DNA of 37,242 bases from Thermoplasmatota archaeon (GCA_036021875.1 JAYXVG010000001.1:1-37242), one strand, 5' to 3'; positions 3,371-33,145 are shown, counted from the stretch's first letter. Numbers and translations: made by a program. Notes: generated by a model not told the origin, from the letters alone.

Positions 3371-6300
3371 GTGGCCAACCTGCTCCAGCCTTTAGGCTGT
3401 CGCGAAATACCGATGAGGGAAATAAAAATGGAAGAGAAAACATTGACACTGCGAAACTCTCCAGCACCAATGCTAGGATGGCTAATTGCCCCCCTTGCAG
3501 TAATGCTGGCAATCGCTGCAATAATGGTCGCAGGAATTGACTTCGACCTAGAACTGAACAACATGACACCTATGCTAGTAGTTGGCGTTGGTGCAATTTT
3601 GGGTATAACTCCAAGAGTGCTCAAGGAAACCGGTGCAGTAAAACTCTCTTCCTCTGCATTTTCCCTTGCCACACTCGGTGCTGTGCTGATCGGACATCAA
3701 GCAATAATACACCTAACAGACTTTGGCGCCTTTACTGCTTTACAATTCTTAGTAGTTGCTTTTGGGGTGTTTTTCTTTGATTCCCGCGGTCGGCATGAAA
3801 TCGCCACGATACTTACTTTTGCAATGATGGGTATCAATGTCGGAATGGTTGCAGTGGGCCACTATAATGACATTTTAGACCCAAATTACAAAATTGGAGA
3901 TACACTTATCCCGCAAGCGCTTGACTTCCAACGCCAAGCACTGGGTTACGTTTTCTTCAGTTATCTGACGATTTTTATCGGATTGGGTCTACTACTATCT
4001 GTTGCGCTAAGAGGAATAATCAACCCAGAGACAAGTGAAGGATGGTTTGGCAAAATCTCGCCGGTTAATGGGGGCTACAATACCGCCACTTTACCCCTTC
4101 AAATAGCAACTCTGGCTTGGATATTGGCACATGTTGGCAGCCTGTATCATTTTGAATCAGTCTCAATGGCCGACAAACTGGGTATATTCTACGAAGAGGG
4201 ATATCACGGTCACTTTGGATTCTGGGGAGCATTTTTCACCGGTGTCGTAGCGATGATTGTTGCTGGCATGGCATCAGAGCGCTGGTATACTCGCTCGATG
4301 TTTATTGGTTCAATGTGGTTGCTTTACCTCGTATCATCATGGTATGAGTCTGGCATGTGGGAGGCAGAGCAGTTAGAAGGCACCTGGGGTGCTCTGATTT
4401 GGCTCGGATTCACTTTCTTCCTTTGTGTCGGTATTTACATGATATCAACGCATGAAAAGTATGGTGGTTGGTCTAACTTAGACGACCATGAAATAAGCGG
4501 CGCTCGAAAGTTCTGGAATGAACACTGGTCCAGCCTAATGGTGGGTGCTGCTTTCTTTTTCGCATTGGTTATCAGAGTTCAATGGTATATCATACCTTCA
4601 ATGAATGCCTTTGGAACTGGAACTTGGGATATGACAGGCGGATCAGACCCGTGGTACATGAAACGTATCGTAGACTACATTCTAGCAAATAATGCACACT
4701 TGATTTTTGACGCAGATAGGTCCTACCCGCTGGGTGGAGTTAATCCAAGACCGCCGCTATTCACATGGTCGATAGCACTGGTTTCCATGCTTTTGGAACC
4801 GATGCTCGGTGAAGATGCAATTTGGTATGCCATACTGGGCTTACCAGCTATTTTTGGTGCATTGACAGTATTCCCTATCGCAGCGATAGCAAAGGATAAT
4901 TTCGGCAAATCCACTGGTGTGGTGGCTGCTTGGTTGATTGCATTCATGCCAGCGCACGTATCTCACTCCACATGGGCTCTTGCAGACCACGATGCGTTTG
5001 TTATGCTGTTTATTTCAATGGGCTTCATGTTTTGGTTCAAAGCAATCAAACATTCAGGCAATGAGCGGCTAACAAAATCAACGTCGCCAAGAATTTCCTC
5101 GATTTTGCGATCATTTTCAGTTGTTGCTACTGAAAAGCGAGCGGCTATGTCTTATGCTGTGCTTGCAGGTATTTCGTTTGGTGTAACCTCGCTGGCCTGG
5201 AAAGGATTTATTGTTGGTCCGAGCATCTTGTTCTTAGCATATTTCGTTCAGGTCGCGCTCAATATGTTTAGAAGAAAAGATTCTACCACAATCAACGCAT
5301 TGTTCTTGGCCATGCTATTCAGTAATCTGCTTATGGCGCTACCATTTTACGGTCATCCACAATTAGCTTTAGTTCTGGATGGTACTGGCTTGCAACCATT
5401 CTTGTTCGTGCTTGGTTTTACCTTAGCGATATCCTATGTCACAACAGGATTCCGCGACAAACCATGGTTGTTGGTTCTCGGAACACTATTTGCATCTGCT
5501 ATGGTCTTTTTCACCATCTTGTTCGTGCTAAAGCAACTCGAAATTAGCAATGCATGGGATGTTTTGTTTACCGGTAGTGGATATTTCACCAAGACGAAAA
5601 TTTTCGGTACTGTCGCTGAAGCAAATGCACCTGACAGAGGTCAATTATTTGCTCAACTAGGACCAATTGTGTTAGTTTTGGCCCTTACAATGGGATTCTA
5701 TTCAATTTACTCGACCTTCAGGAACAAAAACCAATCACATCTATTCTTTGGTATTTGGATTTTTACCGCAGGCTACATGTCATGGACAGCTGCGAGATTT
5801 ATGTTCAATGCAACCCCTGCAGTTGCGGTTCTCGGTGCGTGGGGAATCGTTGCACTCTGGGACAAAGCAAATTGGCGTGGGCTAGTTCGAACTTGGAAGA
5901 AATTTGGCATTAGGACTCCAGCAGACAGAATTGCTGGCGCAAGAAGAGCAGTTTGGAAGACCCCATCATTTTCTGCTATACTGCTGATTATTCTGCTATT
6001 GGGTGGTCAGCAGTTCACCTATGGTTTAGATTCAGCTATACCAGGAACAGACCGGTCAGAAAATGAGTTGGATGAGGATATCTACAACTTAATCCCAGAC
6101 GCACTAAGGTGGGAGCTCGCAGGTTTCTCAGTTCTAGATAGCAGTGCTTACACAGGAAACTGGTATCTTGGATCTTTCGGCTCTGGATTTAATGACGAAG
6201 GCTGGAATAAAGCATATGATTGGTTGTCTCAACAAGATACTGAAATGCCGTATTCCCAACGTCCTGCCTTTGTATCTTGGTGGGATTATGGTTTCCAAGC

Positions 6301-9300
6301 ACTCGATACTGGAGAACACCCATCAGTTTCAGATAACTTCCAGTCTGGGATTCCAGCAACTGGAAATATGTTGTTGGCAAGATCTCAAACGGATTTAGTC
6401 TCAATGTTCATATGGCAACTTGCCACAGGCGACCTTCGCTACAATCAGATTAACACTGGAGACTACCAGTTGACAAATGGGTTTAGTAACAAAGTGGCAA
6501 ATTCAGGTTTGTCTACAGAGCAAATAGACCTATTCAACACAATTCAAGAGAGTCAAGATTTTGATGAAATGAAGCAACTAATCGATGATTATGCGTTTAC
6601 TGTAATTCAAACAAATGAGGCATCTCAAGTCCAGCAAAATAGCGTTAACATGATGGCCACAGGACATCACAGAGTAAACGGAATCGCTGATACTGATACC
6701 ACATACTACAGGTTGTATCAGGACAGTGAGAGAATTATTTGTGACCCAGAGGTTTCAACATCGTGTGTTGATGGTGACTGGGAAGATTATGAAGAGGCTA
6801 ATCAAACATTCAATAACAACGTCAGATCGGGCCAAGAAACCAATTATGATACAACACACTACATCTTTGGAGACTACTTCTACACTAATGACCTAAGAGA
6901 CGAATTTGATTCTGTTTCAACACACATACACCGCCATAACACAAGGTTAGCAATGACAGTTCAGTTACTAAACGACATAATGACTAGCTCTGAAATAGTA
7001 GACTTTTATGATGACTTAATTGGTATGGAATCATATTACAGTGTTCAAGATTATGATGGTTTGCCAGGTGACATGATATCTAGGGATCACGAAATTCGCT
7101 ATTTCGCCATTGATAACAGGCTTTACCCCAAGGCAGGACGTTATACTGCAGACTATGACTATAACTTCGGTCAGCCTATGGGGATATTCGGGGCTCCAAC
7201 AATTCTCAGCGGTCAAGACATTTCCACATTCATGGGTGAGGTATACGAGACCTCACGTGGTGATAGGAACTTTGAGATGACCAGAGAAGAAGTTGACGAG
7301 TCAATGACCAATGATTTCTTAGATCAGCAAGCCGGTCTTGACATAGACCCACTTCAGGTACAGGACGTAAGAGTAGATCATCATCCTGAATTCTTTGAAA
7401 CCATGTTGGCCAGAACCTATGTTGGATATGGTGCATCATCCCTTGGAATTGATACCGCATTTTCTAATCCACAACCCGCTCAGAGATTTGACCAAGGAGG
7501 TAGTCCAAACTCTATCCTTCAGAATGCACCACCGCTACCAGGGGCAATGATGAATCACTTTGTTATAGCAAACTGGTATGATGAAGACAGCAACAGCACA
7601 TTCGATGCTAATGCTAGGGTTAAGATTGTAAAATACTACTCTGGTGCTGAGGTTACCGGTAGTGTCTCAATGAGCGACAACGGCGAGCCCCTGCCGGGAG
7701 TTCGATTGTTAATTGAGCGAGATGCTTTCTCAGGCGAGGATGAAATCGATACTGACGAATCAACATACTGGATTCCAATTGGATTTACTGACGCTGACGA
7801 AAATGGCGAATGGTCTTTCCTGGCACCTGCAGGTAAAATCAGAGTCTCAGCATTTGTTGGAACCTATGACCCAGAGCCAGCAAGAGCAACATTCAATGAC
7901 GGTAGTTATGCCCAACTTCTCAGCAGTGATTTGACCTCTGAAACAACTGAAGACCGACAAATAAATGCCATCACTGCAATTCTTGGTAATGTAGCAAATA
8001 TGACTTGGTTGGGTGAGACTCACTACAACGTGACAGGTGAACAAGCTAACAGAACCGAAGCATTCACTGAAACAATGGATATCGAAGTTGACAGTAGTGG
8101 AATCTCCGGCCAATTAACATGGGTTGGTGATGATTTATTCAATGGCCAACCAATTGTTGACACAACATTGGTCCTCCGCAACATACACGAAACATCAGAC
8201 AATGTGACACTAGTAACAACCAACGGCTCCTTCAGCACTGATGAAACCAGAATTATACAAGGTACAGGTCAAGCAATCTTTACCGAAAACGGCACTTTTG
8301 AAAGTGAAGGTTTAGCCTCGGTCTTTGACTTCCACGGAACATTCACCAGAACAATTAGCGATGGTAGAACATATGTCGCAAACGGTACTTGGAACGGAAC
8401 AGGGGATATCAAAGCATCATGGATTAACCTATCCAGTGACTTTGACATAGACTGTAATGTTGATGAGAACAATTCAGCAAACATCACCATGCCGGTCAAT
8501 CAAACCATTTGTTTGAAAGATGACACTGGCGACTTACCTGTTTACATGTTGGATGGTGAAATTGTTGCAAATGGAAGATTTACTTCACTTGGTGATACAA
8601 TTCTTGTCCAGGAGCATGACGGTGCATCTTTCGAGGGGATTGGTTTCTATGAAGGGACTGGTACTTTCAATGGCACAGGTCGCTTTGTCGGATCTGGGAC
8701 ATTTTCAGGAGAGATGGTCAATCCTGGGTCATTCTACCAGACAGGCATGGTTCCTGGTGAGTATGAAGCCTATGCTAGATTAGACAATGGTAGAGAAGTC
8801 TTACTTCCAGAAACAGTATCTGTGGGGATAAATAATGAATTTGGCTTGACTCTAAGCATGCCTGGCTCACTAATCATCGGAAACCTGACTAACACAACAG
8901 GCGGCGTATTATCCAACACATCATTCGAAATAATTGATACCCTGACTGAAGATTCGCAGCCGATAACAGTTACCAGTAACGAGACTGGTGGCTACAAATA
9001 CGGCCCTGTTTCATCGGGTGAGTATGAATATAGAATCGACTTAGATTCGGACGGATTCTATGAGGTCTCTGGAGAGCTGTTTGTGGGAGATGAGACTGAG
9101 CTATTGGAACCTCTGGGACTAATTCCCGACATGTATGACATCACAGTTACTCTGGTATCTCCACAAGATGATAACGGTCAAAATCTGGTTGAAACCAATC
9201 TACAAAACTTTACACTAACAAATGAGATTGGCGTCGTTGAAACGTATGAGTCGTCAGCAGAAGGAACAATCAACATGGAATTAAATGTCGGAACCTATAC

Positions 9301-12300
9301 TATCGAGCAGGTTGGTCTTGACGATTATTACCTGTATTCTTCGTTCACTATCTCAGATGAAGATTTGTCAATCGATATTGATTATTCTCCGGCTTCTACA
9401 ATAAGCGGAACGATACTGGCATATACAGTAGAGTTCGATGAGAATTGGACTGCAGATGATATCGCAGCGAACACTACAAATGCACAAAACCTCGATGTTA
9501 ACTTCGTCTCTGGTGATGTTATATTTGCAACTGTTACTGATAGTGAAGGTAACTTCACAATCGTTGTTCCAGGAGACCTAGACTATGTAATGAAGGCGGC
9601 AACAACAGCAAATACCTACGGTGTAGGTTTAGTTGTCGAGCCTAATTCTGCTGCAGATTTCAATCTTGGTGAGGTATATTTACAGCGTTTGTATACCATT
9701 TCAGGAACACTAATACTGACTAACACAAACAGCACATGGAATGGTCTAGATTATCGTGGTGTTTCCCCAACAATAGTTGCTACTGACTCTAATAATGTCG
9801 ATTGGGAAGCCGAAGTAACCAGTTCAGGGACCTTTGTTCTTAACTTGGCAAGTGGTGTGTATGATTTTGCTGCATCAGAATCGGAATACAATATTTCTAG
9901 TCTTGAAGGGAAGGAAATATCTAACACCATCCAAAGTAACACTGTCGAACTAAAATCTACCCTCGAGCCGACATCATTTGATATCTCGGTTTGTTTAGTA
10001 TCAGATAAGAATGGAAACTGCGAAACTGGAATACCAAAATATGCAAATATTGAACTCATTTCAAGTTCAAACAGCAGTGTTGTCTATGAACTAAGTGAAG
10101 CAGACTTTGACGAATTTGGAATGACCAGTGTTGAGGTTCTGCCTGGAGTATACACAATCCAGACCAACTACACTGAAGCTGGCGACCAAAATGCAACAGA
10201 TTTCAACATGTTCTTTACCACGCAAGAGATTTTTGTTAGTATGTTTGAGGAAGATAATGTAGAATTCTTCATCGAACTTAATGATGAAAGATTGTTCAAC
10301 GGTAAATTAACAGCAGGTGCAGATAACTTCTCAAACGTTCAATTCTTGTTGTATAATGAATCAAATAATCAATGGCTATCGGCAGTTACCGATAACTTTG
10401 GTAACTTTAACGAGTATATTCCTTCTGGCGATTGGTTGATAATAGTATCTCCACAAGAGATAGAAAACACAACCTATACTCTTAGACATCCAATCACCAT
10501 TGACGATGATTTGTCTGTCAGAACAGACATTTCACTAGCGCTATTTGAAGCAGTAAATGTCAATATGACCCTCATTGAATCAATGACCGATAATTTTGTT
10601 GACAATGCCCGAGTTATTGCAGTCAGTAATGATGGTTATGGCAATGTCACACTGGGTGCGAGTAACCTCTCTGGTTACGTCTCCGATACAATTATGCCTG
10701 GTAGTTGGACACTTACTCTAACTAAAGAGACAAGTGATAAGAAATGGACTATTCAGCAAGATGATTATGTCTTTGACGCAACTCAAGAAGGTGATGTAAA
10801 TCTTGGTGAAGTAATGATTGATCTTGAAGTTCTTATTGGCGGAAAAATTTTCTGGGACTTTAACGAAAATGGTGTAGTAGATATCACAGAGACAATAGAA
10901 AACGCATCAGTAACAATCTCTTCATCTGATGAAATGACAACCTATGACGTAGCCACTGATGCATTTGGTGTCTGGTCGCAAATGGTACCGATTATGGATA
11001 CATACAATGTTACTGTCGAGAAGTCAGGATACTCTACAGGATATTATCTAACAAACGAAACTGATGGACTGATAATCGAAAGTGACTCCGTAACTGAAGA
11101 TTTGTCGATAGTTGCCGACAATGTGTTAGTTAGCGGAGTTGTAACCTCGGTAATGCAAGACCAAGCAGCAAGCCTTACAGACTCGACGATTACGCTATAT
11201 CCTGAATCAGGCAGGGATACCTCGCCAATCGATGTTGTAGGCACATATTCTAACGGTGAACTTGTCTGGACAGCAAATGTAGAGCCAGGAAACTGGATTG
11301 TAGTTGTTGAGAGCACTATCAAAGATGAAAACACTGGCGGTATATCGATAGGATACATTAATGCTGGAGTCGAAGAAGGTGGAGAACTTGAGATGGTTAT
11401 GTCATCTGGTGGATATTTACACTTAGACACTACATGGCAAGATATAGAATTAAACCAACATCATGCTGGTAGTTCAAGCTCTGGCATTGGTATGTTGACC
11501 GACGATGTCCAAGTAACCATTGATACCGGACTTGATGCCGCTTGGAATTATACTGTTGAAACAGACGGAAGCCTTGAATTATTACTTCCAGTCGGTGATT
11601 TCCAGTTGTCATCAGAATTCACAACGATTCAACATGATAGACTACTTGAAATGGATTACTCAGGTAATTCATTTGGTGTGGTAGAGCAAGGAATAATTGA
11701 CGTCACTATGTCTTATACAAGGGCGCTGAATTCGGCAGCAAGTGTTTCAGTCAACCAATCCTCAATAACCAATGCAACATTAATTGAAACCACTATGTTA
11801 ACGCCAATAATCAATGAGTCAGGCTATGATGTTATCGAATTTGATCTGGATATAGTCTATGAAGGAACTGAAACGAGTGATGTCTTGACTATAGGTGGCT
11901 CAACTTTGAGCTCAGCAGATTCTGAGGATTGGAATGTGGAAGTCTTGGACGGTGAAAACTGGACAAACTCAAGAGAAATTACTCTGGGAATCGGAGAATC
12001 AATCGAAGATGATACCGTATCGAACAGCACCACGGTTAAGATGAGAATCACTTTACCGAATGTCAATTCATCGCTGAGCCTGGACAACGGTCACCTAGTG
12101 AAAGTAGAGGTGTCCAGTGAATCCGGAGTATCAGGTAAAACAGAACTTAGAGTCAAGGTTCCACAATATTACGGAATGGAGATAAGCAATGCTGTGACTG
12201 AAACAGGTGTTTCACCAGGTGGTAGTGGTTCATTTTCATTTACTCTGACAAATACAGGCAATGGTGATGACACTTATAGTATCGAACTTGCAGACAACCT

Positions 12301-12949: not shown

Positions 12950-12986
12950 ACAATACATTAAATGCCAAGCAGGCAAAGTTCCTGCT

Positions 12987-12991
12987 GGTGA
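12987..12991 (+). promoter_or_regulatory. Shine-Dalgarno (GGTGA) for the subtilase gene
   Basis: ggtga lies 4 nt before ATG 12996, supporting that start over the TTG at 12894, which overlaps the giant ORF. Confidence 0.45.
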
Positions 12992-12995
12992 GGGC

Positions 12996-14225: not shown

Positions 14226-14259
14226 AATTTCATTAGCAACTTTTCTTAATGATACTATT

Positions 14260-14310
14260 AATTTATTTTGATATTATTAAAAAAAGCAATGTTACCGCAG
14301 TATTATATTC
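14260..14310 (+). promoter_or_regulatory. AT-rich spacer with TATA-like elements, candidate promoter of the beta-helix/STAND gene pair
   Basis: atttattttgatattattaaaaaaagc ... tattatatt; several TATA-like octamers 30-80 nt upstream of ATG 14344. I cannot tell which one is used. Confidence 0.3.
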
Positions 14311-25059: not shown

Positions 25060-25092
25060 TTATGCATTGACCTAGAAAATGTGCAAAAACTG

Positions 25093-25914: not shown

Positions 25915-26103
25915 GCTAATACTAGAACCCCAGCGCGGAAGGGTATTGAATAAATCGCTTAACTTCACATACATAGCGACATTTTCTAGCAAGATTTCCG
26001 ACAATCAGGGAGAATATTTACTGATATTTGTCGGAACATCACTCCACCATGCTCTTAAGGGTAATCTTTGAGACAGAAATAGCGAAGAGTATTCCCAGCG
26101 ACA

Positions 26104-26108
26104 GGTGA
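26104..26108 (+). promoter_or_regulatory. Shine-Dalgarno (GGTGA) for the TSP3-repeat giant gene
   Basis: acaGGTGAaaagATG, with a 4-nt spacer to ATG 26113. Confidence 0.45.
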
Positions 26109-26112
26109 AAAG

Positions 26113-29100
26113 ATGAGAAGAAGTCAATCAACCCTTCTGACAACCCTTGCAGTGGTCATTAGCTTGCTCTTTATGTCGCAGTTCCCCACAATCTCGCCCG
26201 TATCAAATATACATCCCGATGACACGAATCAAGAGCGACCCCCAACAACCGATTCGGATGGAGATGGCATTCCAGATGTTCATGAGAATCTATTCGCCGA
26301 ATGGGTAAATGGAACTGCGGTAGATGGTAGGGGTTACTCAATGGAAGGTCTAGACAAAGATGACGCCTCTGACGCATTGTTGGATAATGATCAAGATGGG
26401 TTAAATGCAACAGAAGAGTATTGCTGGCCATATCCAGCAGAGTGCACAGACCCAGGTTTCCTTAGAGGCTTAACTGGTGTGGTAGACGGTGAGGGTATCA
26501 GGTCATATCTTGATCCACGTAAGTCTGATACTGATGGAGATGGAATGCCTGATGGTTATGAAGCATACATGTGTTTGCGAATCGGTGGCTTTGATGTATT
26601 TGCTCAGCGCTACCAGTGTAATGACTTCGATCCACTCAACGCCAGCGACGCTACGAAAGATCCTGACATGGACGGCTTTGATGTCAATCGAGATGGAATT
26701 ATGAATCAAAATGAATGGTATACCTCAAGTGAAGAATACATTCATGGTGCCCCTGCCAATCACACAACTGAGTTAGATGGTCTATGGTGCACTGCAACCT
26801 TGCCAGAAGGTGCTTTGCTGACAAACTGGCCGTACATTCCAACAGGAGTAAATGCCACCTTCCAAAATTTACTCCCAGCCTGTACGAACTCAGAATCGCC
26901 AGTTGGTGAAGACTTGTGGTTGGGGACTGACCCATTATTGAAAGATTCAGACCGCTACAATTGGGACGGTTTCTCAGTCCGTAGTTTGTTTCCCTCCTTT
27001 GGTGACGGTATTCCTGATGGTTGGGAGGTTCATTTTGGACTAGACCCGCTCAATCGAAGTAGTGCACTCCTCGATGAGGATTTCGATGGTTGGGATGAGA
27101 ATTATGATGGTATTTTATCACCTGATGTAAGCCGTACTGATACCGCTCTTGCTATTGGTGAGCAGCTATCGAATATTGAAGAATACAAGGTGTATTATGA
27201 TGAAGGGAATGATGTAATTGCCGGCCTTAAGTCTGTAGAATTTGACACTGATTCTTCAACCTTGTTTAATTTCCCGATCTCATTTGCTGTCACTGAGGAA
27301 GAACTCAGCATAATGCACCATGATGTAAGATCTTTGAACGTCGTGGATTCAACAATTTATGCAACAACAAAATATGGAGTGACCATAATTGATTACTCAG
27401 CACAGTCAAGTATCGATTATTGGATGCCGCAGGGAGTAATTCTACAAGATGCTGAGTTGCTATTTGACTCTGATGACAACCTTTACTCGATAGCCGTTGC
27501 GTCTAACTTCGGACTTGGAGTGGGTAGAATACTATCAGACGGTTCACTGGAAGATACCAAAGATTGGGATTGGTCCCAAACAGGATCTCTCCTTGAGATT
27601 GAGGAACTGGAGGTTAATAGCCCCAATAATCAGTTAATCGGCTTAGGTATATCGGGAACTGGCAACGTGTTTGAGGTCAGCAGTTCTGGCCTTATAGAGG
27701 AAGTAAATACTGTTAGCACGGCGATAACGAATCAACTGGCAACTGGTAATGCGACTGTTACTGACATTGAACACGGTTTAGCAAATGGAAATTTGACGTT
27801 ATTCATCGCCACCGATCGAGGATTGCTAATATCAGAAACCAACTCAGGTCGAGATGGTGATATTGCAGAATGGCGATTTTACTTCACTCAGGAAGACACT
27901 GGAATTTTCGCATCGATAAATGAACTGAGAACTCTGCCAGTTGGAAGCGACGAAAATCCAGCAGAAATCAGGGATATTCACCTTGATGGTCCTACACCAA
28001 GTAACCCTCAAGTTCTTTGGTTTGGGACACCCTCAGGTTTGCACCAGATGAGACTAATTGATAATGTAATTACCCACAGTGGATTGTTAGAAAATCCTGG
28101 TTCAGAGGAGATAAGCACAAGAGACATCAATAGTATAAGATCAATTCATACTACAGGCGACCAAATAATACTTGGTTCTAGTGCCGGAACATGGGTGGTT
28201 TCTGGAGATTACTCAAATGTATACGAAATCGATGAGCAGGAAATAATTCCCGGTTACATTACGCAAATAACCACGATTGGTGACTCTGAAAATATGACAA
28301 TATTTGGGGCTGCAGCTCCGGGGAAATATTCGAATCTAGAACTAATGAATCCCAAATCAAATGATTCTGATAGTGATGGCATACCAGATGGATGGGAGAT
28401 TGGTAACGGTCTAGACCCTACAGATCCGTGGGATGCATTGCTCGATTTTGACTTTGATGGTCTTGATTTAGATCAATCCGGGGACGGCATTTACGAGCGG
28501 TTATGGACCAACCTCGATGAATTTAGGTATGTTGAAAGAACTGAAGAAGGGTATAATTCAACCAATCCAAATGCTGGAGATACTGATGGTGACGGTTTAT
28601 CAGACGGGGCTGAATATTTCGGATTTTTTTATGAGAGCACTAATTTATGGTGTTACTATAATGTACAATTAGAATATATTTGTGATAGCCAGATTGGCGC
28701 CGCTGCAAACCAAACTTACCTGCAATCAGGTATTGCTGATGTAGGGACAGACCCGACAAATCATGATAGTGACGGTGACGGAATGCCCGATGGATGGGAA
28801 ATTGAAAATCGTCGCTGGGTAGGTTCAACATTCACTGGAGGGAATAACTGGTCACTGGACCCTAATCGAGCAGAGGATGCAACTTGGGACGCTGATGGTG
28901 ATGGATTACAGAATCTATGCGAATATCAGTGGAGTCAACTGAAATATCAAGCAATGGAAGGTTTACTTTTAGAGTCTCACGGAGAAAATATTTCAGGTGC
29001 AGAAAATTGGACAGAATCAGACCCGAATAACATTGATTCTGATGGAGATACACTGCCAGATGGCTGGGAAGCATCATATTCATGCAGTTGGGCACCTAGC

Positions 29101-31857
29101 AGAGCAGGAATCAATCCGCTTAATGGATCAGATGCGTTAAACAATCCTGATAACGATGGTTTTGACATTGATAGAGATGGAATTCTGCAAATCAATGAGG
29201 CGTTTGTAAATTATTTAGAATACCATTTGCGGGATGATTTATTCGACACTGAAAATCCTGTTGATTTTGACAATTTGCCCTTTGGCTTAACCACAGATTT
29301 GTTTGATAACGTTGGTCAAAACGGTTACCCTGAAGCATCATACTCCCAACGCGCCGCAGGATCATATCTTGCTAGCCAAAACCCACTCGATGAGGGCGCT
29401 TCTGACCCGCTTGACAGCGACTCTGACGAAGATGGAATGCCTGATGGGTGGGAGATTTGGTTCTCTAGGTGGGACGTTCTGCAGGATGAATGGACACTAA
29501 ACCCGCTCCAACCTGCAGACCGCTGGCAAGATGCTGACGATGACGGTATGACTAATTGGGAAGAGTATAATGCAATAGACCCATTGTTAACTGAAACTGA
29601 TGCAAATAGGAGTTCGCCAAAGTGGTTTGTTACAACAGTTGGTAGCGCATATACCTTTCAAGCGTGGGCTGGGGTTCAAACAGACTTGTCATTTGGTTCT
29701 TTTGTCAATGAAACACAGAGAAACCTGACTGGAATAACTGGTGACCCTAACAATGTAGATACTGATGGTGATGGGATAATTGATGGCGTAGAATTATTAT
29801 TCACTACATGGAATTCCTCGACACAAACCTGGACTCTAAATCCACTGACTCCAGGTGATGGCTTGTTTGATTCAGACGAAGATGGTCTGGTTGATTTGCA
29901 GGAGTTCGCGCTGGTAAATTCAAATCCCGACAACGGCATTGAGCATCCAACAGATGCTCCGCTATTGCACATAGACGGAGACCTATTGCAGCCAACAGAG
30001 AAAGCCCAAAGAATGTTCAATATGTTGATTTCCAAAGAAACTCGAGGCAAGAGGTTGTTGAATGATTTCAACGATTGGCAAAATGGAGAGCCTGCAAATG
30101 CATTTATTTCTATCCTGATGGGTATAACAGACCCAACCAACCCGGACACCGACGGAGATGGTATGTATGATGGATTTGAGTATTGGTTCGCAGAGTGGGA
30201 TTTGGAAAATAACCTTTGGAGTATTAACCCATTGATTGATGGTGATGTTTTATTGGACACGGATGGTGACAGTTTCGATTGTGATGGAGATGGTAATATC
30301 TCTCTTGAAGAGCGATTTTCAAATCTAAGAGAATGGGAATCACGAACCTGGGGTAAATACTCTGAACGTAACACAATTCCCCAGGAGGTAGGTATACTGA
30401 GCTTTGGTGATGATGCGATAAATGCGTATATTGAAGAGTTGGGTTACAGCTACATTGATGCAACGAGGGCGTTGTATGATGATTTTGCGTCAAAGAGTCC
30501 TGAAAGCGCAGACAGAATGCAGCGAATTAATTCCTACGACGAGAATAATTTCAACCGAACTCTGATTGGGGTTGCCGATCCAACCAGCACAGACTCAGAT
30601 GGTGATTCAATTCCTGATGGATGGGAATATTGTTATGCAATATATGGTATGCCAGATGTGACAACTCAGAATCATTGGGCAGCAAATCCAATTAATCCGC
30701 ATGATGTTAATTACGATGGTGACAGCGATGGTTGGTACGATAGAAATTCACTTGACATTCCCGCAACCCAAGGTATTTGGGAGGATCGAAACTTTATCGA
30801 AAGTGGCACAATCATTCAACCAGGACCTGGCTCCCTACCTTTTACCAACCTGATGGAGTGGAACAACAACACAAGGCCAGACTTAAATGACACAGATGCT
30901 GATTCTGTAACCTACATAACTCAAGTCATAAATGGTCAAGTCGTTGCTCACCAAATAGATTACAATCTCAGTGACGGAAGAGAGGTCTTCAAGTATGGCA
31001 TAAACCCAAATGATAATGATACTGATGGCGATATGCTACCAGATTGGTATGAATACAAAATGGCTTGGAATGAATCTAACGATAATTTTTCATCTTACCT
31101 GCAAATAAAGGTGGTTTGGATTGATTCACTAACAGGCGGTGAGTGCGATACAAACACTGTGTCATGTCTGCCTCTATCAGCTGAATCGGGCGTATTATCA
31201 AGGCCTGAATTACAATTTACCTGGTTCACTCTTGATCCTGCCGACCCAGTAGATGCAAACTACGATCCAGATAATGACGGCAACTATGATTGCTCAGGTG
31301 CGGGGTGTAGTTATGAGCCATATACTAACTTCCAGGAGTTCTACATGATTACGGATGAGGACCTTACTTCACCAAATGCCGTAAGGCTTGCCCCATTGGT
31401 TTATCAAGGCAGTCCAGTTGAAGAATGGTGGCAATTTAGGGGATACACATTAGGTCTTGGAGAGCCATCAGAGGCATCGACAAACTACCTAAAGATGGAC
31501 AAACAGTCATCCACTGATTTCCGCTATGTTTTAATCATAGACGATAACGATGACGAATTCTTAACCTTAAATCCCGATGATGACCAGATTTTACTATCTG
31601 GTGCACAAACAGATTTGTGGGAGATATATTACGCTAGCTCGCCACAAACCGCCCCAGTAAGGGCTGTGGGTGAACACGAACTTGGTTGGTATATGATGGA
31701 CTTTGACGATGATCACCTTGCAGAGGGTAGCAGCCCAATCAGTTGGGACACAGACGGGGATTGGATTGTTGACTGGTTTGAGGTTAATGACGACGAAGAA
31801 GATGGTTTGCGAGGCGATTCTTCACCGATAAGGTATGATTCGAGACAAACTGGGTAA
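26113..31857 (+). CDS. Giant secreted, highly acidic protein with ~20 thrombospondin type-3-like Ca-binding repeats (DxDxDGxxDxxE) flanking a beta-propeller-like core
   Basis: N-terminal hydrophobic signal (LLTTLAVVISLLFMSQF). Repeats seen by eye: DSDGDGIPDVHE (26251-26286), DTDGDGMPDGYE, DSDSDGIPDGWE, DTDGDGLSDGAEY, DSDGDGMPDGWE, DSDGDTLPDGWE, DSDEDGMPDGWE, DTDGDGIIDGVE, DTDGDGMYDGFEY, DSDGDSIPDGWEY, DTDGDMLPDWYEY, DTDGDWIVDWFE, and others. No C-terminal TM. Confidence 0.85.
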   Translation: MRRSQSTLLTTLAVVISLLFMSQFPTISPVSNIHPDDTNQERPPTTDSDGDGIPDVHENLFAEWVNGTAVDGRGYSMEGLDKDDASDALLDNDQDGLNATEEYCWPYPAECTDPGFLRGLTGVVDGEGIRSYLDPRKSDTDGDGMPDGYEAYMCLRIGGFDVFAQRYQCNDFDPLNASDATKDPDMDGFDVNRDGIMNQNEWYTSSEEYIHGAPANHTTELDGLWCTATLPEGALLTNWPYIPTGVNATFQNLLPACTNSESPVGEDLWLGTDPLLKDSDRYNWDGFSVRSLFPSFGDGIPDGWEVHFGLDPLNRSSALLDEDFDGWDENYDGILSPDVSRTDTALAIGEQLSNIEEYKVYYDEGNDVIAGLKSVEFDTDSSTLFNFPISFAVTEEELSIMHHDVRSLNVVDSTIYATTKYGVTIIDYSAQSSIDYWMPQGVILQDAELLFDSDDNLYSIAVASNFGLGVGRILSDGSLEDTKDWDWSQTGSLLEIEELEVNSPNNQLIGLGISGTGNVFEVSSSGLIEEVNTVSTAITNQLATGNATVTDIEHGLANGNLTLFIATDRGLLISETNSGRDGDIAEWRFYFTQEDTGIFASINELRTLPVGSDENPAEIRDIHLDGPTPSNPQVLWFGTPSGLHQMRLIDNVITHSGLLENPGSEEISTRDINSIRSIHTTGDQIILGSSAGTWVVSGDYSNVYEIDEQEIIPGYITQITTIGDSENMTIFGAAAPGKYSNLELMNPKSNDSDSDGIPDGWEIGNGLDPTDPWDALLDFDFDGLDLDQSGDGIYERLWTNLDEFRYVERTEEGYNSTNPNAGDTDGDGLSDGAEYFGFFYESTNLWCYYNVQLEYICDSQIGAAANQTYLQSGIADVGTDPTNHDSDGDGMPDGWEIENRRWVGSTFTGGNNWSLDPNRAEDATWDADGDGLQNLCEYQWSQLKYQAMEGLLLESHGENISGAENWTESDPNNIDSDGDTLPDGWEASYSCSWAPSRAGINPLNGSDALNNPDNDGFDIDRDGILQINEAFVNYLEYHLRDDLFDTENPVDFDNLPFGLTTDLFDNVGQNGYPEASYSQRAAGSYLASQNPLDEGASDPLDSDSDEDGMPDGWEIWFSRWDVLQDEWTLNPLQPADRWQDADDDGMTNWEEYNAIDPLLTETDANRSSPKWFVTTVGSAYTFQAWAGVQTDLSFGSFVNETQRNLTGITGDPNNVDTDGDGIIDGVELLFTTWNSSTQTWTLNPLTPGDGLFDSDEDGLVDLQEFALVNSNPDNGIEHPTDAPLLHIDGDLLQPTEKAQRMFNMLISKETRGKRLLNDFNDWQNGEPANAFISILMGITDPTNPDTDGDGMYDGFEYWFAEWDLENNLWSINPLIDGDVLLDTDGDSFDCDGDGNISLEERFSNLREWESRTWGKYSERNTIPQEVGILSFGDDAINAYIEELGYSYIDATRALYDDFASKSPESADRMQRINSYDENNFNRTLIGVADPTSTDSDGDSIPDGWEYCYAIYGMPDVTTQNHWAANPINPHDVNYDGDSDGWYDRNSLDIPATQGIWEDRNFIESGTIIQPGPGSLPFTNLMEWNNNTRPDLNDTDADSVTYITQVINGQVVAHQIDYNLSDGREVFKYGINPNDNDTDGDMLPDWYEYKMAWNESNDNFSSYLQIKVVWIDSLTGGECDTNTVSCLPLSAESGVLSRPELQFTWFTLDPADPVDANYDPDNDGNYDCSGAGCSYEPYTNFQEFYMITDEDLTSPNAVRLAPLVYQGSPVEEWWQFRGYTLGLGEPSEASTNYLKMDKQSSTDFRYVLIIDDNDDEFLTLNPDDDQILLSGAQTDLWEIYYASSPQTAPVRAVGEHELGWYMMDFDDDHLAEGSSPISWDTDGDWIVDWFEVNDDEEDGLRGDSSPIRYDSRQTG

Positions 31858-31875
31858 TAATTCCGAGATGATTTC

Positions 31876-32319
31876 ATGTCAGATAGAGGCATAGATGGTC
31901 TTGTAACCTTACAAGAAAGGATGGTTAATCTCATCAAACAACTCAACATGCCCCTAGTTGAGGTAAGTATGGTAATTCAAAATATGATAAGTCCGATGTT
32001 AGAATCACTTAATCGGCACGCAATTGAACATACAATTGAAATTCCGGATAGGTTATTGAACCCATGGCCGATCGAAAAACCAATTCATGAGGATGTAAAA
32101 TCTTCGCTTGCCGTTGAAAAAATTCTTTCTGTGATAGATGACGACAGGATGGATATATTGGAAACGTTAGTACGAGTCACTATGGTAGAAACAGAGATGA
32201 TATTACTCGATGGAATTGCAGCACTAAGGATGTGGGAGCATCTGGCGAGAAGCCAGTTGGCAAATATCAACTCTCCAGGACAATTATTTTCACCATTTGA
32301 AATACCGGAAGATTGGTGA
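31876..32319 (+). CDS. Hypothetical small acidic cytoplasmic protein (147 aa)
   Basis: ATG ORF 18 nt after the giant gene, on the same strand, with no signal peptide or TM. I recognise no motif. Coding status rests on position, length and lack of a competing ORF. Confidence 0.5.
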   Translation: MSDRGIDGLVTLQERMVNLIKQLNMPLVEVSMVIQNMISPMLESLNRHAIEHTIEIPDRLLNPWPIEKPIHEDVKSSLAVEKILSVIDDDRMDILETLVRVTMVETEMILLDGIAALRMWEHLARSQLANINSPGQLFSPFEIPEDW

Positions 32320-32353
32320 CAACATTATCAAGAAACAACATTTCGGCCCAGAC

Positions 32354-33145
32354 ATGGGACGATTGAATCACGTAGCTCTAATTCTTATTTTCTTGATGCT
32401 ATCAGTCTCTTTGTCTGGCTGCTTTGGAAGTAACATATTTGTCGCCGAAGACAAGAAAGGGATACCTGGTGGTTTGACTATGGCTTGCTTATCCTCTGAT
32501 AAGTATACCTCAATGGTTGTTGAAGTTGATTACGATTCAGGTTACATGCCTGAGCAAAGTTCCATAGATTTACTCAAAACTAGACTCCAGGAGGTATGCG
32601 ATAAGCCAAACGGTATTGAGGTTACATTAACTGAGACTGACTTTGGTCAATCAGAGTCGTGGACTGCGGATGATGTAAGAGAAAAAGCCTGGGAGCATAA
32701 ATCTGCAGATCCGCTGACCGGCTCGACACTATATTGGCAAGCATTGTTTCCTGCTGGGGGATATAGTAACGGAGATGTATTAGGGGTTGCAGTAGACGCC
32801 TCGACCGTGGCTATTTTTAAAGATGCAGTTGAGGATGCAGAAGGGCCATTCTTCAGTAGGCCGTCAGCAGAGGAAATTGAAAATAGCGTTTTAGTTCATG
32901 AATATGGTCATTTGCTTGGGTTAGTAAATTTGGTCTACAAATCTCCTGTAGATCATGAAGATAAAGATCACCCGGGACACTCAAACAACGAAGAATCAGT
33001 TATGTATTGGGCGGTAGAATCGGCAGATTTGAGCAACATTATCACGGGCCAATTACCAGATGATTTCGATAATGATGATCGGAACGACCTTGCTGGGATG
33101 CTTAGCGGGGATATTCCCGTAAGGGACCAACTATGGCTGCCTTAG
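32354..33145 (+). CDS. Putative zinc metalloprotease lipoprotein (HExxH, metzincin-like)
   Basis: MGRLNHVALILIFLMLSVSLSGC has a lipobox-like LSGC (Cys 32420-32422). VLVHEYGHLLGL carries HEYGH at 32897-32911, followed by DHEDKDHPGHSNNEESVMYW (extra His residues and a possible Met-turn). Start moved from TTG 32297 to ATG 32354, downstream of the preceding stop. Confidence 0.7.
   Translation: MGRLNHVALILIFLMLSVSLSGCFGSNIFVAEDKKGIPGGLTMACLSSDKYTSMVVEVDYDSGYMPEQSSIDLLKTRLQEVCDKPNGIEVTLTETDFGQSESWTADDVREKAWEHKSADPLTGSTLYWQALFPAGGYSNGDVLGVAVDASTVAIFKDAVEDAEGPFFSRPSAEEIENSVLVHEYGHLLGLVNLVYKSPVDHEDKDHPGHSNNEESVMYWAVESADLSNIITGQLPDDFDNDDRNDLAGMLSGDIPVRDQLWLP

What the first reader, a model, noticed from the sequence alone, without database searches (positions are those of the whole stretch)
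3371..33145. A ~30-kb envelope block as one candidate system: OST-fused giant, two tethered proteases, two more giants, a STAND switch and a pilin-like triad
Between ordinary metabolic genes, thirteen consecutive genes nearly all encode extracytoplasmic, membrane-tethered or regulatory components. In order they are the AglB-fusion and subtilase; the beta-helix giant and STAND regulator; MBL and three prepilin-like genes (opposite strand); then the TSP3 giant, a small orphan and an HExxH lipoprotein. Three proteins total about 6500 aa of predicted surface or secreted sequence, rich in N-glycosylation sequons and Ca-binding loops. The arrangement suggests a self-contained attachment or particle-processing apparatus. 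It would have glycosylated anchored scaffolds, a secreted Ca-dependent matrix protein, pilin-anchored subunits and proteases, under one sensor. I found no integrase, transposase, tRNA or flanking repeats, so it does not look like a recent mobile insertion.
Basis: inference. Interest (0 to 1): 0.7.

Follow-up and report, generated by a model that had tools for sequence, protein, structure and literature searches.

The report
Conserved archaeal cell-envelope gene neighbourhood
This 30-kb stretch of a marine Group II archaeon is an anciently conserved row of cell-surface genes, including a sugar-attaching enzyme fused to a giant surface protein, but the evidence shows several separable modules, not one self-contained machine.

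Summary
The genes are real and mostly as described, but there are 11, not 13. The window is from Candidatus Poseidoniaceae (Marine Group II a). The block is not a flexible or mobile island. In every locus long enough (80 Poseidoniaceae species-representative loci, plus about 40 loci from other public assemblies), the order AglB-giant, S8 protease, beta-helix giant and STAND regulator, then MBL, TSP3 giant and a small protein, is kept. Spacing is almost base-for-base among Poseidoniaceae.

"One system under one sensor" is not shown:
- The housekeeping flanks (carS, purD; g12-g14, g16) are equally collinear.
- The pilin-like triad is missing from the locus in Thalassarchaeaceae.
- The HExxH lipoprotein sits in a variable slot.
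- The beta-helix and TSP3 giants have separate, strongly conserved but different promoter elements.

The most notable finding is the oligosaccharyltransferase. It is about 3150-3190 aa in both families: an unassigned N-terminal multi-TM module, a canonical AglB with WWDYG, a roughly 1750-aa extension enriched in N-glycosylation sequons (z +4 to +6), and a C-terminal anchor. The beta-helix giant also carries an invariant cytoplasmic tail motif, next to the TPR-containing regulator.

Verdict: a conserved envelope-biogenesis neighbourhood made of modules, containing a new variant of AglB.

The parts
3386..3399 (+). Conserved hairpin CAGCCTTTAGGCTG in the G1 leader. A TATA-like CTTATATATGG lies at 3333-3343.
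   Evidence: Present upstream of G1 in the window, L091 and L092 (variant TAGCCTTTGGGCTG). It lies between the purD stop (3283) and the probable G1 ATG (3428).
3428..12949 (+). G1: tripartite oligosaccharyltransferase giant. The ORF opens at GTG 3371; the likely start is ATG 3428. Sub-parts:
- aa 20-380 (nt 3428-4510): unassigned ~8-TM module.
- aa 381-889 (4511-6037): STT3/AglB TM domain.
- aa 890-1400 (6038-7570): periplasmic core, with WWDYG at nt 6278-6292.
- aa 1401-3157 (7571-12841): sequon-rich beta-sandwich/CARDB-like extension.
- aa 3158-3185 (12842-12925): C-terminal TM plus a basic tail.
   Evidence: - Pfam STT3 E 4.5e-17.
- TIGR04154 E 7e-48, below its cutoff.
- A. fulgidus AglB 3WAJ aligns from aa 383; as a profile, E 1e-13.
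- Foldseek hits Stt3, AglB and PglB.
- Motifs GGSDPWY, LADHD, GTVAE and WWDYG.
- Sequon z +4.9.
- Orthologues are 3182, 3163 and 3147 aa.
12996..14210 (+). G2: membrane-anchored S8 subtilase, 404 aa from ATG 12996. It has a conserved ~45-aa cytoplasmic N-terminus, a TM, and an extracellular catalytic domain.
   Evidence: Pfam Peptidase_S8 119 bits. Triad D151/H186/S364. Orthologues are 400-412 aa. The N-terminal peptide VELLPEPDDxRILSAIDPxAxG is conserved in both families.
14250..14310 (+). G3 promoter region. TGATAYWWT boxes lie at 14250 and 14269. A near-invariant CCGCAGTATTATATTC (BRE/TATA-like) lies at 14295-14310.
   Evidence: 2-4 direct copies of TGATAY spaced 19-24 nt, plus GAGGCGCAGTRTTATATYC, occur in the Poseidoniaceae loci. 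Thalassarchaeaceae have GTATCA x2 plus CCCTATGATTAAATC. In the window the box occurs as a closely spaced pair only here.
14344..18753 (+). G3: type-I membrane giant. It has a signal peptide, a right-handed beta-helix, Ig-like domains, a TM (aa ~1375-1397), and a cytoplasmic tail ending in an invariant motif (aa 1446-1472, nt 18646-18726).
   Evidence: Pfam Beta_helix E 2e-9 and Big_7. Length is constrained to 1405-1511 aa. The tail motif xHPGW(L/I)WD-x4-5-WVPDPxY is conserved in both families while the linker varies. Sequons are not enriched.
18766..21288 (+). G4: MalT-like STAND regulator with an N-terminal winged HTH, an AAA_16 NTPase and TPR repeats.
   Evidence: - Pfam AAA_16 39.3 bits, TPR_12 87.5 bits, HTH_Crp_2 22.4 bits.
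- Walker A and B.
- 69-99% identical in Poseidoniaceae and 53% in Thalassarchaeaceae, always 840-850 aa.
- The wHTH is the best-conserved region.
21291..25059 (-). G5 (21291-21761), G6 (21758-23983) and G7 (23980-25059): three proteins with class-III (prepilin-like) signal peptides. This module was found in Poseidoniaceae loci only.
   Evidence: - Conserved N-termini: AAATELGYIFTFLLGV, AVSAAVATVLLFGGV and AVSEVLGVVMLLAMV.
- Weak Pilin_N and DUF7289 hits, below cutoffs.
- G6 and G7 share only the N-terminus.
- G6 aa 90-570 is confidently all-beta, with no specific structural homologue.
- Absent from the locus in Thalassarchaeaceae.
25093..26004 (-). G8: cytoplasmic MBL-fold hydrolase, the first gene of the minus-strand unit. 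Orthologue lengths of 267-275 aa suggest a start at ATG 25914.
   Evidence: Pfam Lactamase_B and Lactamase_B_2. HHHGDH motif. 69-82% identical in Poseidoniaceae and 51-62% in Thalassarchaeaceae. Substrate unknown.
26029..26060 (+). Order-wide conserved element upstream of G9. It has a GAAC-N3-GTTC-type half-palindrome (degenerate in this window: GAACATCACTC), then CCAYCA, then a TATA-like TCWTAAG.
   Evidence: One copy in 98 of 124 loci, from both families. Its distance to the G9 ATG is fixed (84 nt; 70 or 63 nt in Thalassarchaeaceae), while its distance to G8 varies. It is unique in the window.
26113..31857 (+). G9: secreted, highly acidic Ca-binding giant. It has a signal peptide and no anchor, many TSP3-type loops, and a non-repeat central region (aa ~400-720).
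   Evidence: - 11 strict and 22 loose DxDxDG motifs.
- TSP3_bac 26.6 bits on aa 741-1100.
- Nearly all loops are invariant between families.
- Length is 1895-1942 aa.
- Sequon z +2.5.
- No PDB homologue.
31876..32319 (+). G10: small acidic cytoplasmic protein, always directly downstream of G9.
   Evidence: 36-42% identical in Thalassarchaeaceae at the same position. The C-terminal LFSP(F/M)(E/D)(I/L)P motif is conserved. No family hit.
32297..33145 (+). G11: lipoprotein with HEYGH (zincin-like). It occupies a variable slot and is not a conserved member of the neighbourhood.
   Evidence: Lipobox LSGC and HEYGH at aa 201. Peptidase_M10 scores 20.9 bits, below the 24-bit cutoff. In Thalassarchaeaceae the slot is empty or holds a GST/glutaredoxin-like, a rhodanese-like, or a PD40 lipoprotein gene.

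Best explanation
The interval is a vertically inherited, order-wide conserved cell-envelope gene neighbourhood of Marine Group II archaea (Poseidoniales). It is made of separable modules, not one machine.

Module 1 (G1-G2). G1 is an AglB-type oligosaccharyltransferase with an extra N-terminal multi-TM module. Its C-terminus continues into a ~1750-aa sequon-rich beta-sandwich stalk that ends in a second membrane anchor. I infer that the enzyme and a heavily N-glycosylated surface scaffold are made as one polypeptide. This would place the glycosylation site inside the cell's glycoprotein coat. The adjacent membrane-tethered subtilase may process this polypeptide or other envelope proteins.

Module 2 (G3-G4). 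G3 is a type-I beta-helix giant whose invariant cytoplasmic tail peptide I infer docks onto the TPR domain of the adjacent STAND regulator G4. This would give a route from the cell surface to transcription.

Module 3 (G9-G10). G9 is a secreted, acidic, Ca-binding, moderately glycosylated giant expressed from its own highly conserved promoter/operator. G10 is a small cytoplasmic partner.

Lineage-specific additions. The MBL gene is order-wide. In Poseidoniaceae three pilin-like surface proteins have been added downstream of it. The slot after G10 is variable.

Shown: gene content, motifs, conservation, modularity and cis-elements.
Inferred: coat or scaffold function, tail-TPR docking, the targets of G4, and proteolytic processing.
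For: - Taxon and conservation: 80 Poseidoniaceae loci with identical order and spacing; Thalassarchaeaceae: purD, G1 3147 aa, S8, beta-helix, STAND, MBL, G9, G10.
- AglB identity of G1.
- Fusion intact in three lineages.
- Sequon enrichment of the G1 extension is conserved: median z +6.1 (n=57) and +4.0 (n=13).
- The giants are tightly length-constrained. This suggests structural proteins, not repeat-variable adhesins.
- G3 tail motif invariant across families with a variable linker. G3-G4 adjacency is kept, with a 12-58 nt gap.
- The G4 wHTH is its best-conserved part.
- Separate conserved promoter elements for G3 and G9.
- Two of two informative distant G4-like regulators sit next to other giant surface proteins.
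- Modularity: triad and G11 absent or variable.
Against: - No expression, proteomic or biochemical data were available.
- Flanking housekeeping genes are as collinear as the block. Even the module-level links (G1 with G2, G9 with G10) therefore rest on adjacency, co-orientation and short gaps.
- I could not check whether G1 is the only AglB in these genomes.
- The N-terminal module and the extension have no recognised homologues. The AlphaFold model of aa 1-1000 was poor (pLDDT 54).
- Tail-TPR docking is untested.
- The G3 and G9 upstream motifs differ, so a single regulator for both is not indicated.
- G3 is not sequon-rich, so "glycosylated scaffold" does not apply to it.
Confidence: 0.6

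Rival explanations
1. All 11 genes form one self-contained attachment or particle-processing apparatus: glycosylated anchored scaffolds, a secreted Ca matrix, pilin-anchored subunits and proteases. The single STAND sensor G4 co-regulates it.
For: - Dense clustering of three giants, two proteases, three pilin-like proteins and a regulator.
- Rigid conservation of the whole G1-G9 arrangement across Poseidoniaceae.
- Distant relatives of G4 also neighbour giant surface proteins.
Against: - The triad and G11 are dispensable in the sister family.
- The flanks are equally syntenic.
- There are at least three transcription units on two strands, with different conserved upstream motifs and no shared motif.
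- No pilus assembly ATPase or platform gene lies within 10 kb.
- G8 and G10 are cytoplasmic and of unknown role.
Confidence: 0.15
2. Frozen synteny only. The genes are functionally unrelated envelope and housekeeping genes. They are neighbours because this chromosomal region of the streamlined Poseidoniales genome has simply not been rearranged since the order's ancestor.
For: - purD, carS, g12, g13, g14 and g16, which have no envelope role, keep their places as well as the block genes do.
- Only 7 of 11 block genes are order-wide.
- G3 and G9 have different promoters.
Against: - Three proteins over 1400 aa, plus a membrane protease, within 30 kb is unlikely for random neighbours. No comparable gene lies in the about 20 kb of flanks seen.
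- Gaps are very short and orientation is shared for G1-G2, G3-G4 and G9-G10.
- The G3 tail motif sits next to a TPR protein.
- Paralogous regulators recur beside other giants.
Confidence: 0.2
3. A flexible genomic island or horizontally acquired surface-variation cassette.
For: The surface-exposed parts evolve fast. The G1 C-terminal extension is 32-45% identical at genus level, against 69-87% for G4.
Against: - The block is present at the same place in all 80 species-representative Poseidoniaceae loci and in about 40 further loci from other public assemblies.
- GC is flat.
- There is no tRNA, integrase, transposase or flanking repeat.
- Only the slot after G10 behaves as variable.
Confidence: 0.01

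Closest known systems
AglB, the archaeal STT3-type oligosaccharyltransferase (e.g. Archaeoglobus fulgidus AglB-L, PDB 3WAJ/5GMY/7E9S)
   Same: G1 aa ~383-1010 has the following in common:
- The GT-C/STT3 TM domain (Pfam above threshold).
- The acidic EL1 motif GGSDPWY, LADHD, a TIXE-like GTVAE, and WWDYG.
- Sequence and fold matches to AglB, Stt3 and PglB.
   Different: - G1 is 3.6 times longer than AglB-L (875 aa).
- It has an extra ~360-aa, ~8-TM N-terminal module with no homologue found.
- It has a ~1750-aa sequon-enriched beta-sandwich/CARDB-like extension and a second, C-terminal membrane anchor.
- It scores far below the TIGR04154 subfamily cutoff (164 vs 450 bits).
- I found no paper describing such a fusion.
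MalT/AfsR-type STAND transcription regulators
   Same: G4 has a P-loop AAA_16 NTPase with Walker A and B, a MalT-like TPR sensor region, and a DNA-binding domain.
   Different: The HTH is N-terminal and winged (Crp/MarR-like), whereas, from memory, MalT has a C-terminal LuxR-type HTH. G4 is archaeal. Its effector is unknown; the proposed input is a peptide from a neighbouring membrane giant, not a small molecule. MalT control by MalK sequestration is cited from memory as an analogy only.
Tetrabrachion-STABLE protease surface complex of Staphylothermus marinus (recalled from memory, not tested here)
   Same: It pairs a giant anchored archaeal surface glycoprotein scaffold with subtilisin-family proteases. 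The scaffold is made as a precursor that is cleaved.
   Different: No sequence or structural similarity was tested or seen. Here the scaffold is fused to the OST and is built of beta-sandwich domains. No coiled-coil stalk was detected in the Pfam, NCBIfam and PDB searches. Cleavage is only hypothesised.
Bacterial TSP3-repeat (thrombospondin type 3-like) Ca-binding secreted proteins. "Thrombospondin genes" were noted in Poseidoniales by Rinke et al. 2019 (PMC6461757).
   Same: G9 carries many DxDxDGxxDxxE loops and reaches the TSP3_bac threshold in segments. The literature already lists thrombospondin-like genes as a widespread MGII adhesion trait.
   Different: G9 is a single-copy, length-constrained (about 1900 aa) orthologue at a fixed locus, with its own order-wide conserved promoter element and a dedicated small partner gene. 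The whole-protein Pfam scan and the PDB searches found nothing.
Archaeal type IV pilin-like proteins (class III signal peptides; Pilin_N PF07790, DUF7289)
   Same: G5-G7 have a short charged N-terminus, a conserved A/G-VS or AAATE junction, and a hydrophobic helix. They give weak Pilin_N and DUF7289 hits.
   Different: All Pfam scores are below the gathering cutoffs. No assembly ATPase, platform protein or prepilin peptidase lies within 10 kb. G6 carries a ~480-aa multi-beta-sandwich body unlike small structural pilins.

Membership tests
AglB/STT3 oligosaccharyltransferase (G1) | STT3 transmembrane domain recognised by the family profile | tested here: met
   Pfam PF02516 63.1 bits against a cutoff of 24.5, over aa 414-819. 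A profile of 26 orthologues hits A. fulgidus AglB at E 1e-13.
AglB/STT3 oligosaccharyltransferase (G1) | Catalytic and substrate-binding motifs: acidic EL1 motif, second acidic motif, TIXE/SVSE-type motif, and WWDYG | tested here: met
   GGSDPWY (D426), LADHD (539-541), GTVAE (747-750) and WWDYG (970-974) are present in the window. GGSDPWY, ADHD and WWDYG are also in the Thalassarchaeaceae orthologue. My TIXE pattern did not match there. The DK/MI motif was not identified.
AglB/STT3 oligosaccharyltransferase (G1) | GT-C fold | tested here: inconclusive
   Foldseek finds Stt3 (E 2.5e-8), AglB (1.8e-7) and PglB (5e-4). However, the model has a mean pLDDT of 54 and TM-scores of 0.3-0.5.
AglB/STT3 oligosaccharyltransferase (G1) | Transfers lipid-linked glycan to Asn in N-X-S/T | not testable with these tools
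   Needs biochemistry or complementation.
TIGR04154 archaeosortase-A-associated STT3 subfamily | Score above the curated cutoff | tested here: not met
   163.6 bits against a cutoff of 450. The G1 C-terminus has no PGF-CTERM motif.
STAND NTPase transcription regulator, MalT-like (G4) | P-loop NTPase with Walker A and B, plus a repeat sensor domain | tested here: met
   AAA_16 39.3 bits (cutoff 32.6). GIAGIGKT at aa 200 and LIVIDD at aa 284. TPR_12 87.5 bits. TPR_MalT 40 bits is below its cutoff of 45.
STAND NTPase transcription regulator, MalT-like (G4) | DNA-binding domain | tested here: inconclusive
   HTH_Crp_2 scores 22.4 bits against a cutoff of 27. Some database entries name the protein a MarR-family regulator. 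The N-terminal 100 aa are the most conserved region.
Subtilase S8 (G2) | Family profile and the Asp/His/Ser triad | tested here: met
   119 bits against a cutoff of 21.8. DTG at 151, HGT at 186, GTS at 362-364.
Archaeal type IV pilin-like proteins (G5-G7) | Class III signal peptide and N-terminal hydrophobic helix recognised by Pilin_N or related profiles | tested here: inconclusive
   The motifs are conserved across 14 genera-level orthologues. However, Pilin_N scores 21.0 (cutoff 25.2), DUF7289 scores 24.8 and 20.9 (cutoff 27), and G5 has no hit.
Archaeal type IV pilin-like proteins (G5-G7) | Linked assembly ATPase, membrane platform or prepilin peptidase | tested here: not met
   None within +/-10 kb in any locus. 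The rest of the genome could not be examined.
TSP3-type Ca-binding repeat proteins (G9) | Repeated DxDxDGxxDxxE loops recognised by TSP3_bac | tested here: met
   11 strict motifs. PF18884 scores 26.6 bits (cutoff 25) for aa 741-1100 and 22.8 bits for aa 1-380. There is no hit when the whole protein is scanned at E<=0.01.
Matrixin/M10 metalloprotease (G11) | Profile score and the HExxHxxGxxH motif | tested here: not met
   20.9 bits against a cutoff of 24. The motif is HEYGHLLGLVN, so the third His is missing.
Genomic island / mobile element | Variable presence among relatives, mobility genes, a tRNA or repeat boundary, or deviant composition | tested here: not met
Single operon or regulon ("one system") | Co-transcription or shared regulatory motif, and co-inheritance of all members | tested here: not met
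   The genes lie on two strands, in at least 3 units. The G3 and G9 upstream elements differ and neither recurs. The triad and G11 are not co-inherited. Co-expression was not testable.

The most novel reading that the evidence does not exclude
Two linked claims.

1. In the most abundant planktonic archaea of the surface ocean, N-glycosylation is carried out by a ~3150-aa tripartite protein. It combines an unknown 8-TM module (possibly handling the lipid-linked glycan), AglB, and a doubly anchored, self-glycosylated stalk. This protein would be both the enzyme and a structural element of the cell coat.

2. A neighbouring giant surface protein signals across the membrane. Its invariant C-terminal peptide (HPGWLWD...WVPDPxY) would be presented to the TPR domain of a STAND transcription factor. 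That would be a previously undescribed archaeal surface-to-gene signalling route.
Probability: 0.2. Interest if true: 0.75.

Novelty: new variant of a known kind. Interest (0 to 1): 0.5.

Why it matters
Marine Group II archaea are abundant and uncultured, and their cell envelope is unknown. This locus is a fixed, order-wide feature containing their AglB, so it is a strong candidate for encoding core parts of that envelope.

An OST permanently fused to a giant sequon-rich, anchored substrate-like domain and to an extra membrane module would be an unusual solution for coupling glycosylation to coat assembly.

The conserved promoter elements, the G3 tail motif and the adjacent STAND regulator give concrete, testable handles on how these cells regulate their surface. 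Candidate approaches are binding assays, structure prediction of complexes, and metatranscriptome or metaproteome mining.

The result also corrects the expectation that such surface-gene clusters are flexible islands. Here only one slot and one three-gene module vary.

Tried and rejected
- Mobile or flexible island: rejected.
- AglB and the giant as two separate genes. L092 shows a 764-aa "AglB" followed by a 1959-aa gene. The break is a single in-frame TAG inside the STT3 TM domain, and the alignment runs straight through it, so it is an error or a pseudogene, not a natural split. The five pieces in L091 are frameshifts in a long-read assembly, where purD is split too.
- N-terminal 8-TM module as an internal duplication of STT3: no similarity. 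Pfam, NCBIfam and PDB profile searches gave nothing. The AlphaFold model was too poor to assign a fold.
- A shared regulatory motif across the block: the G9 element and the TGATAY boxes each occur at one promoter only.
- The conserved G9 upstream element as a small ORF or a known RNA: no consistent reading frame (by inspection) and no Rfam hit. A C/D-box reading was considered and dropped as unconvincing.
- Bacterial-type promoter and terminator scan: uninformative for an archaeon.
- Structure-based assignment of G6: only generic beta-sandwich matches, with TM-scores of 0.07-0.12.
- PDB searches gave nothing for single-sequence G3 and G9 or for the G6, G7 and G9 profiles.
- Literature searches found no description of this locus or of an AglB fusion in Poseidoniales.
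- The first metagenome scan, meant to reach the lineage of a 49%-identical fragment (P0149), instead returned Thalassarchaeaceae loci. That turned out to be what was needed.

Full report
**Source and gene map**

The window carries CDP-archaeol synthase, purD and an STT3 gene. Exact-protein look-ups place it on Tara Oceans scaffolds and in MAG GCA_036142975.1. The closest named relatives of its regulator are Candidatus Poseidoniaceae, that is Marine Group II a.

Between purD (2012-3283) and a small membrane protein (g12) lie 11 genes, not 13.

| Gene | Coordinates and strand | Size | Content |
|---|---|---|---|
| G1 | 3371/3428-12949 (+) | 3192 aa | AglB giant |
| G2 | 12996-14210 (+) | 404 aa | S8 protease |
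| G3 | 14344-18753 (+) | about 1470 aa | beta-helix giant |
| G4 | 18766-21288 (+) | 840 aa | STAND regulator |
| G5 | 21291-21761 (-) | 156 aa | pilin-like |
| G6 | 21758-23983 (-) | 741 aa | pilin-like |
| G7 | 23980-25059 (-) | 359 aa | pilin-like |
| G8 | 25093-26004 (-) | about 273-303 aa | MBL hydrolase |
| G9 | 26113-31857 (+) | 1914 aa | TSP3 giant |
| G10 | 31876-32319 (+) | 147 aa | orphan |
| G11 | 32297-33145 (+) | 282 aa | HExxH lipoprotein |

There is no tRNA, no Rfam family and no mobility gene. There are no flanking repeats; the only repeats are the TSP3-coding motifs inside G9. GC is flat.

**Check of the individual descriptions**

G1 is an AglB.
- Pfam STT3 is well above threshold, and NCBIfam archaeo_STT3 gives E 7e-48.
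- A. fulgidus AglB-L aligns from G1 residue 383. With a profile of orthologues, AglB residues 4-442 align to positions 359-808 at E 1e-13.
- The motifs GGSDPWY, LADHD, GTVAE and WWDYG are present.
- Even a poor AlphaFold model (pLDDT 54) retrieves Stt3, AglB and PglB by Foldseek.

Upstream of the AglB part lie about 360 residues with about 8 TM helices. They match nothing in Pfam, NCBIfam or the PDB, and they are not a duplicate of the STT3 TM domain. Downstream of the periplasmic core lie about 1750 residues of prealbumin/CarboxypepD_reg, CARDB-like and choice-of-anchor-T-like beta-sandwich domains. A TM helix and a short basic tail follow.

The other genes:
- G2 has the S8 triad and an N-terminal signal-anchor.
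- G3 is a type-I membrane protein with a beta-helix and Ig-like domains.
- G4 has Walker A and B, AAA_16, MalT-like TPRs and a weak N-terminal wHTH.
- G5-G7 have conserved prepilin-like N-termini. Their Pilin_N and DUF7289 hits are below threshold.
- G6 and G7 are related only in that N-terminal segment.
- G9 has 11 strict Ca-loop motifs and passes TSP3_bac in segments.
- G11 has a lipobox and HEYGH but fails the matrixin test.

Sequon enrichment is real for the G1 extension (z +4.9) and G9 (z +2.5). G3 is depleted (z -2.0), and G2, G6 and G7 are not enriched. The same pattern holds across orthologues in both families.

**Conservation**

A scan of one genome per species with an alignment of G4 orthologues found 416 relatives. 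The best 80 loci have 69-96% identical G4 and are all Poseidoniaceae, including the original MG-II assembly CM001443.

In every locus long enough, the order G1 C-terminus, G2, G3, G4, G5, G6, G7, G8, G9 is identical, and gene starts differ by only tens of bases. Contexts from other assemblies agree, and they show G1 orthologues of 3182 and 3163 aa with STT3.

A metagenome scan returned 31 loci whose G4 is about 53% identical. Exact-sequence look-up names these Candidatus Thalassarchaeaceae, that is Group II b. There the order is G1, G2, G3, G4, MBL, G9, G10, a variable slot, g12, g13, g14 and g16. A further look-up shows the left side: purD, an intact 3147-aa STT3 giant, S8, beta-helix, STAND, MBL and G9.

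The G1 architecture is the same in that family. Identity to the window by region is as follows:

| G1 region | Identity to window |
|---|---|
| N-terminal TM module | 24% |
| STT3 TM domain | 49% |
| Periplasmic core | 42% |
| First part of the extension | 41% |
| Rest of the extension | 24-29% |

WWDYG and the C-terminal TM are present, and 38 of the 46 sequons lie in the extension.

Apparent splits of G1 in two contigs are assembly frameshifts or a single in-frame TAG inside the TM domain.

The giants are tightly length-constrained: G3 is 1405-1511 aa and G9 is 1895-1942 aa.

**What this says about "one system"**

The block is the opposite of a flexible island, and linkage is conserved. That conservation does not single out the block, however.
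- carS and purD on the left keep their places too. So do g12, g13 (a pyroglutamyl-peptidase-NUDIX fusion), g14 and g16 on the right.
- Within the block only 7 of 11 genes are order-wide.
- The pilin-like triad is absent from the locus in all Thalassarchaeaceae loci, where the G4 stop abuts the MBL stop.
- The position of G11 is empty or holds a GST/glutaredoxin-like gene, a rhodanese-like gene or a PD40 lipoprotein.

The genes form at least three or four transcription units on two strands.
- Upstream of G3, Poseidoniaceae loci have 2-4 direct TGATAY boxes and a near-invariant GCGCAGTRTTATATYC.
- Upstream of G9, 98 loci from both families share one element: TGTNNGAAC-N3-GYTCCAYCA-N3-TCWTAAG. 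Its distance to the G9 ATG is fixed and its distance to G8 is variable.
- The G9 element occurs once in the window, and the TGATAY boxes are paired only upstream of G3.
- G1 has its own leader with a conserved hairpin.

So there is good evidence for conserved, probably regulated promoters. There is no evidence for a common regulon.

**Evidence for functional links inside modules**

- G3 and G4 are always adjacent and co-oriented, with a gap of 12-58 nt.
- The cytoplasmic tail of G3 ends in xHPGW(L/I)WD-x4-5-WVPDPxY. This motif is invariant in both families although the linker before it differs completely in length and sequence. G4 carries a TPR domain, a peptide-binding fold.
- The wHTH of G4 is its most conserved region, at 61-71% against 48% for the TPRs.
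- Two distant members (27-29% identity) of the G4 family could be seen in context. One lies divergent from a 2733-aa A2M/CARDB giant, the other from FG-GAP and PKD giants. Two other contigs were too short to be informative.
- G2 follows G1 after 47 nt and has a conserved cytoplasmic N-terminal peptide.
- G10 always follows G9 and has a conserved C-terminal motif.

**Most likely mechanism (inference)**

1. G1 couples N-glycosylation to the cell coat. A single polypeptide provides the OST and a heavily glycosylated stalk anchored at both ends. The extra N-terminal membrane module may serve lipid-linked glycan handling or complex formation. G2 may mature it or other coat proteins.
2. G3 and G4 form a surface-to-transcription signalling pair through tail-TPR docking. 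This is analogous in logic to MalT-MalK sequestration, which I cite from memory.
3. G9 is a secreted Ca-dependent acidic glycoprotein layer or matrix, with G10 as a cytoplasmic helper.
4. Poseidoniaceae added three prepilin-type surface proteins downstream of the MBL gene. G6 has a confident ~480-aa multi-beta-sandwich body with no specific homologue.

The tight length constraint and single-copy, fixed-locus nature of the giants fit structural envelope components better than repeat-variable adhesins. "Attachment" cannot be excluded.

**Comparison with the literature**

Rinke et al. (PMC6461757) list thrombospondin genes and archaella as adhesion traits of Poseidoniales. Damashek et al. (PMC9723583) report an oligosaccharyltransferase among the genes more abundant in metatranscriptomes from samples where the genus they call O1 was highly active. 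I found no paper describing this locus, the AglB fusion, the promoter elements or the G3 tail motif.

**Verdict**

It is partly not: this is not a demonstrable single system, and it is not flexible. The most notable object is the tripartite AglB giant, a new variant of a known enzyme family that is conserved across an entire, ecologically dominant order.

Noticed in passing
window 26029-26060 (G8-G9 intergenic): A ~32-nt non-coding element, TGTCGGAACATCACTCCACCATGCTCTTAAGG. It occurs in one copy in 98 of 124 loci, from both MGII families. It is better conserved than any protein here and sits at a fixed distance from the G9 ATG. It has a GAAC-N3-GTTC palindrome (perfect in genus Poseidonia) followed by a TATA-like box. 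It is probably the G9 operator plus promoter.
   Followed up: partly
window 14250-14310 (G2-G3 intergenic): Direct TGATAYWWT boxes (2 here, up to 4 in relatives, spaced 19-24 nt) precede a near-invariant GCGCAGTRTTATATYC. Thalassarchaeaceae have two GTATCA boxes and CCCTATGATTAAATC instead. This is a regulated promoter distinct from that of G9.
   Followed up: partly
window 18646-18726 (G3 aa 1446-1472): The cytoplasmic C-terminal motif SQHPGWLWDAQSNQWVPDPNYV is invariant across both families behind a hypervariable linker. A second motif, EDPYAWAKAK, is found in Poseidoniaceae only. It is a candidate docking peptide for the TPR domain of G4.
   Followed up: partly
window 12996-13140 (G2 aa 35-85): The cytoplasmic N-terminus of the membrane-tethered subtilase is conserved in both families (VELLPEPDDxRILSAIDPxAxG). 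This is unexpected for a simple signal-anchor.
   Followed up: no
window 3371-3441: The ORF-finder start of G1 (GTG 3371) is probably wrong. Orthologue calls and the alignment consensus start at ATG 3428. The stretch 3386-3399 is a conserved leader hairpin, CAGCCTTTAGGCTG.
   Followed up: partly
L092:3673-3675: A single in-frame TAG lies inside the STT3 TM domain of a distant G1 orthologue, and gene callers split the gene there. It is a sequencing error, a pseudogene or a polymorphism; which one is not resolved.
   Followed up: partly
L083 (NZEQ01000036.1): A contig deposited in a "Verrucomicrobiales bacterium" MAG carries the complete archaeal block, with G4 70% identical. The contig is almost certainly mis-binned.
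   Followed up: no
window 33477-34586 (g13): A fusion of a pyroglutamyl peptidase (C15) domain with a NUDIX domain in one 369-aa protein. A gene at the same position in Thalassarchaeaceae is 30-35% identical in its best tblastn segment. Whether that gene keeps both domains was not checked.
   Followed up: no
L124/L125 1436-9637 and L129 1-8945: Distant relatives of G4 (27-29% identity) lie divergent from other giant surface proteins: a 2733-aa A2M/MG2/CARDB protein, and 1704+ aa FG-GAP and 1268-aa PKD proteins. This hints at a general pairing of this regulator family with giant envelope genes.
   Followed up: partly
L095 18702-19451, L103 18646-19467, L097 18740-19951, L105 ~18664: The position downstream of G10 is a small variable slot in Thalassarchaeaceae. 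It holds a GST/glutaredoxin-like gene, a rhodanese-like gene, a PD40 lipoprotein, or nothing. It is the only island-like spot in the region.
   Followed up: partly
window 25093-26004 (G8): In orthologues the MBL protein carries precomputed hits to the anti-Pycsar Apyc1 family (cyclic-nucleotide phosphodiesterase). In this window the score is only 18.7 bits against a cutoff of 50. Its substrate, and any link to its neighbours, are unknown.
   Followed up: no
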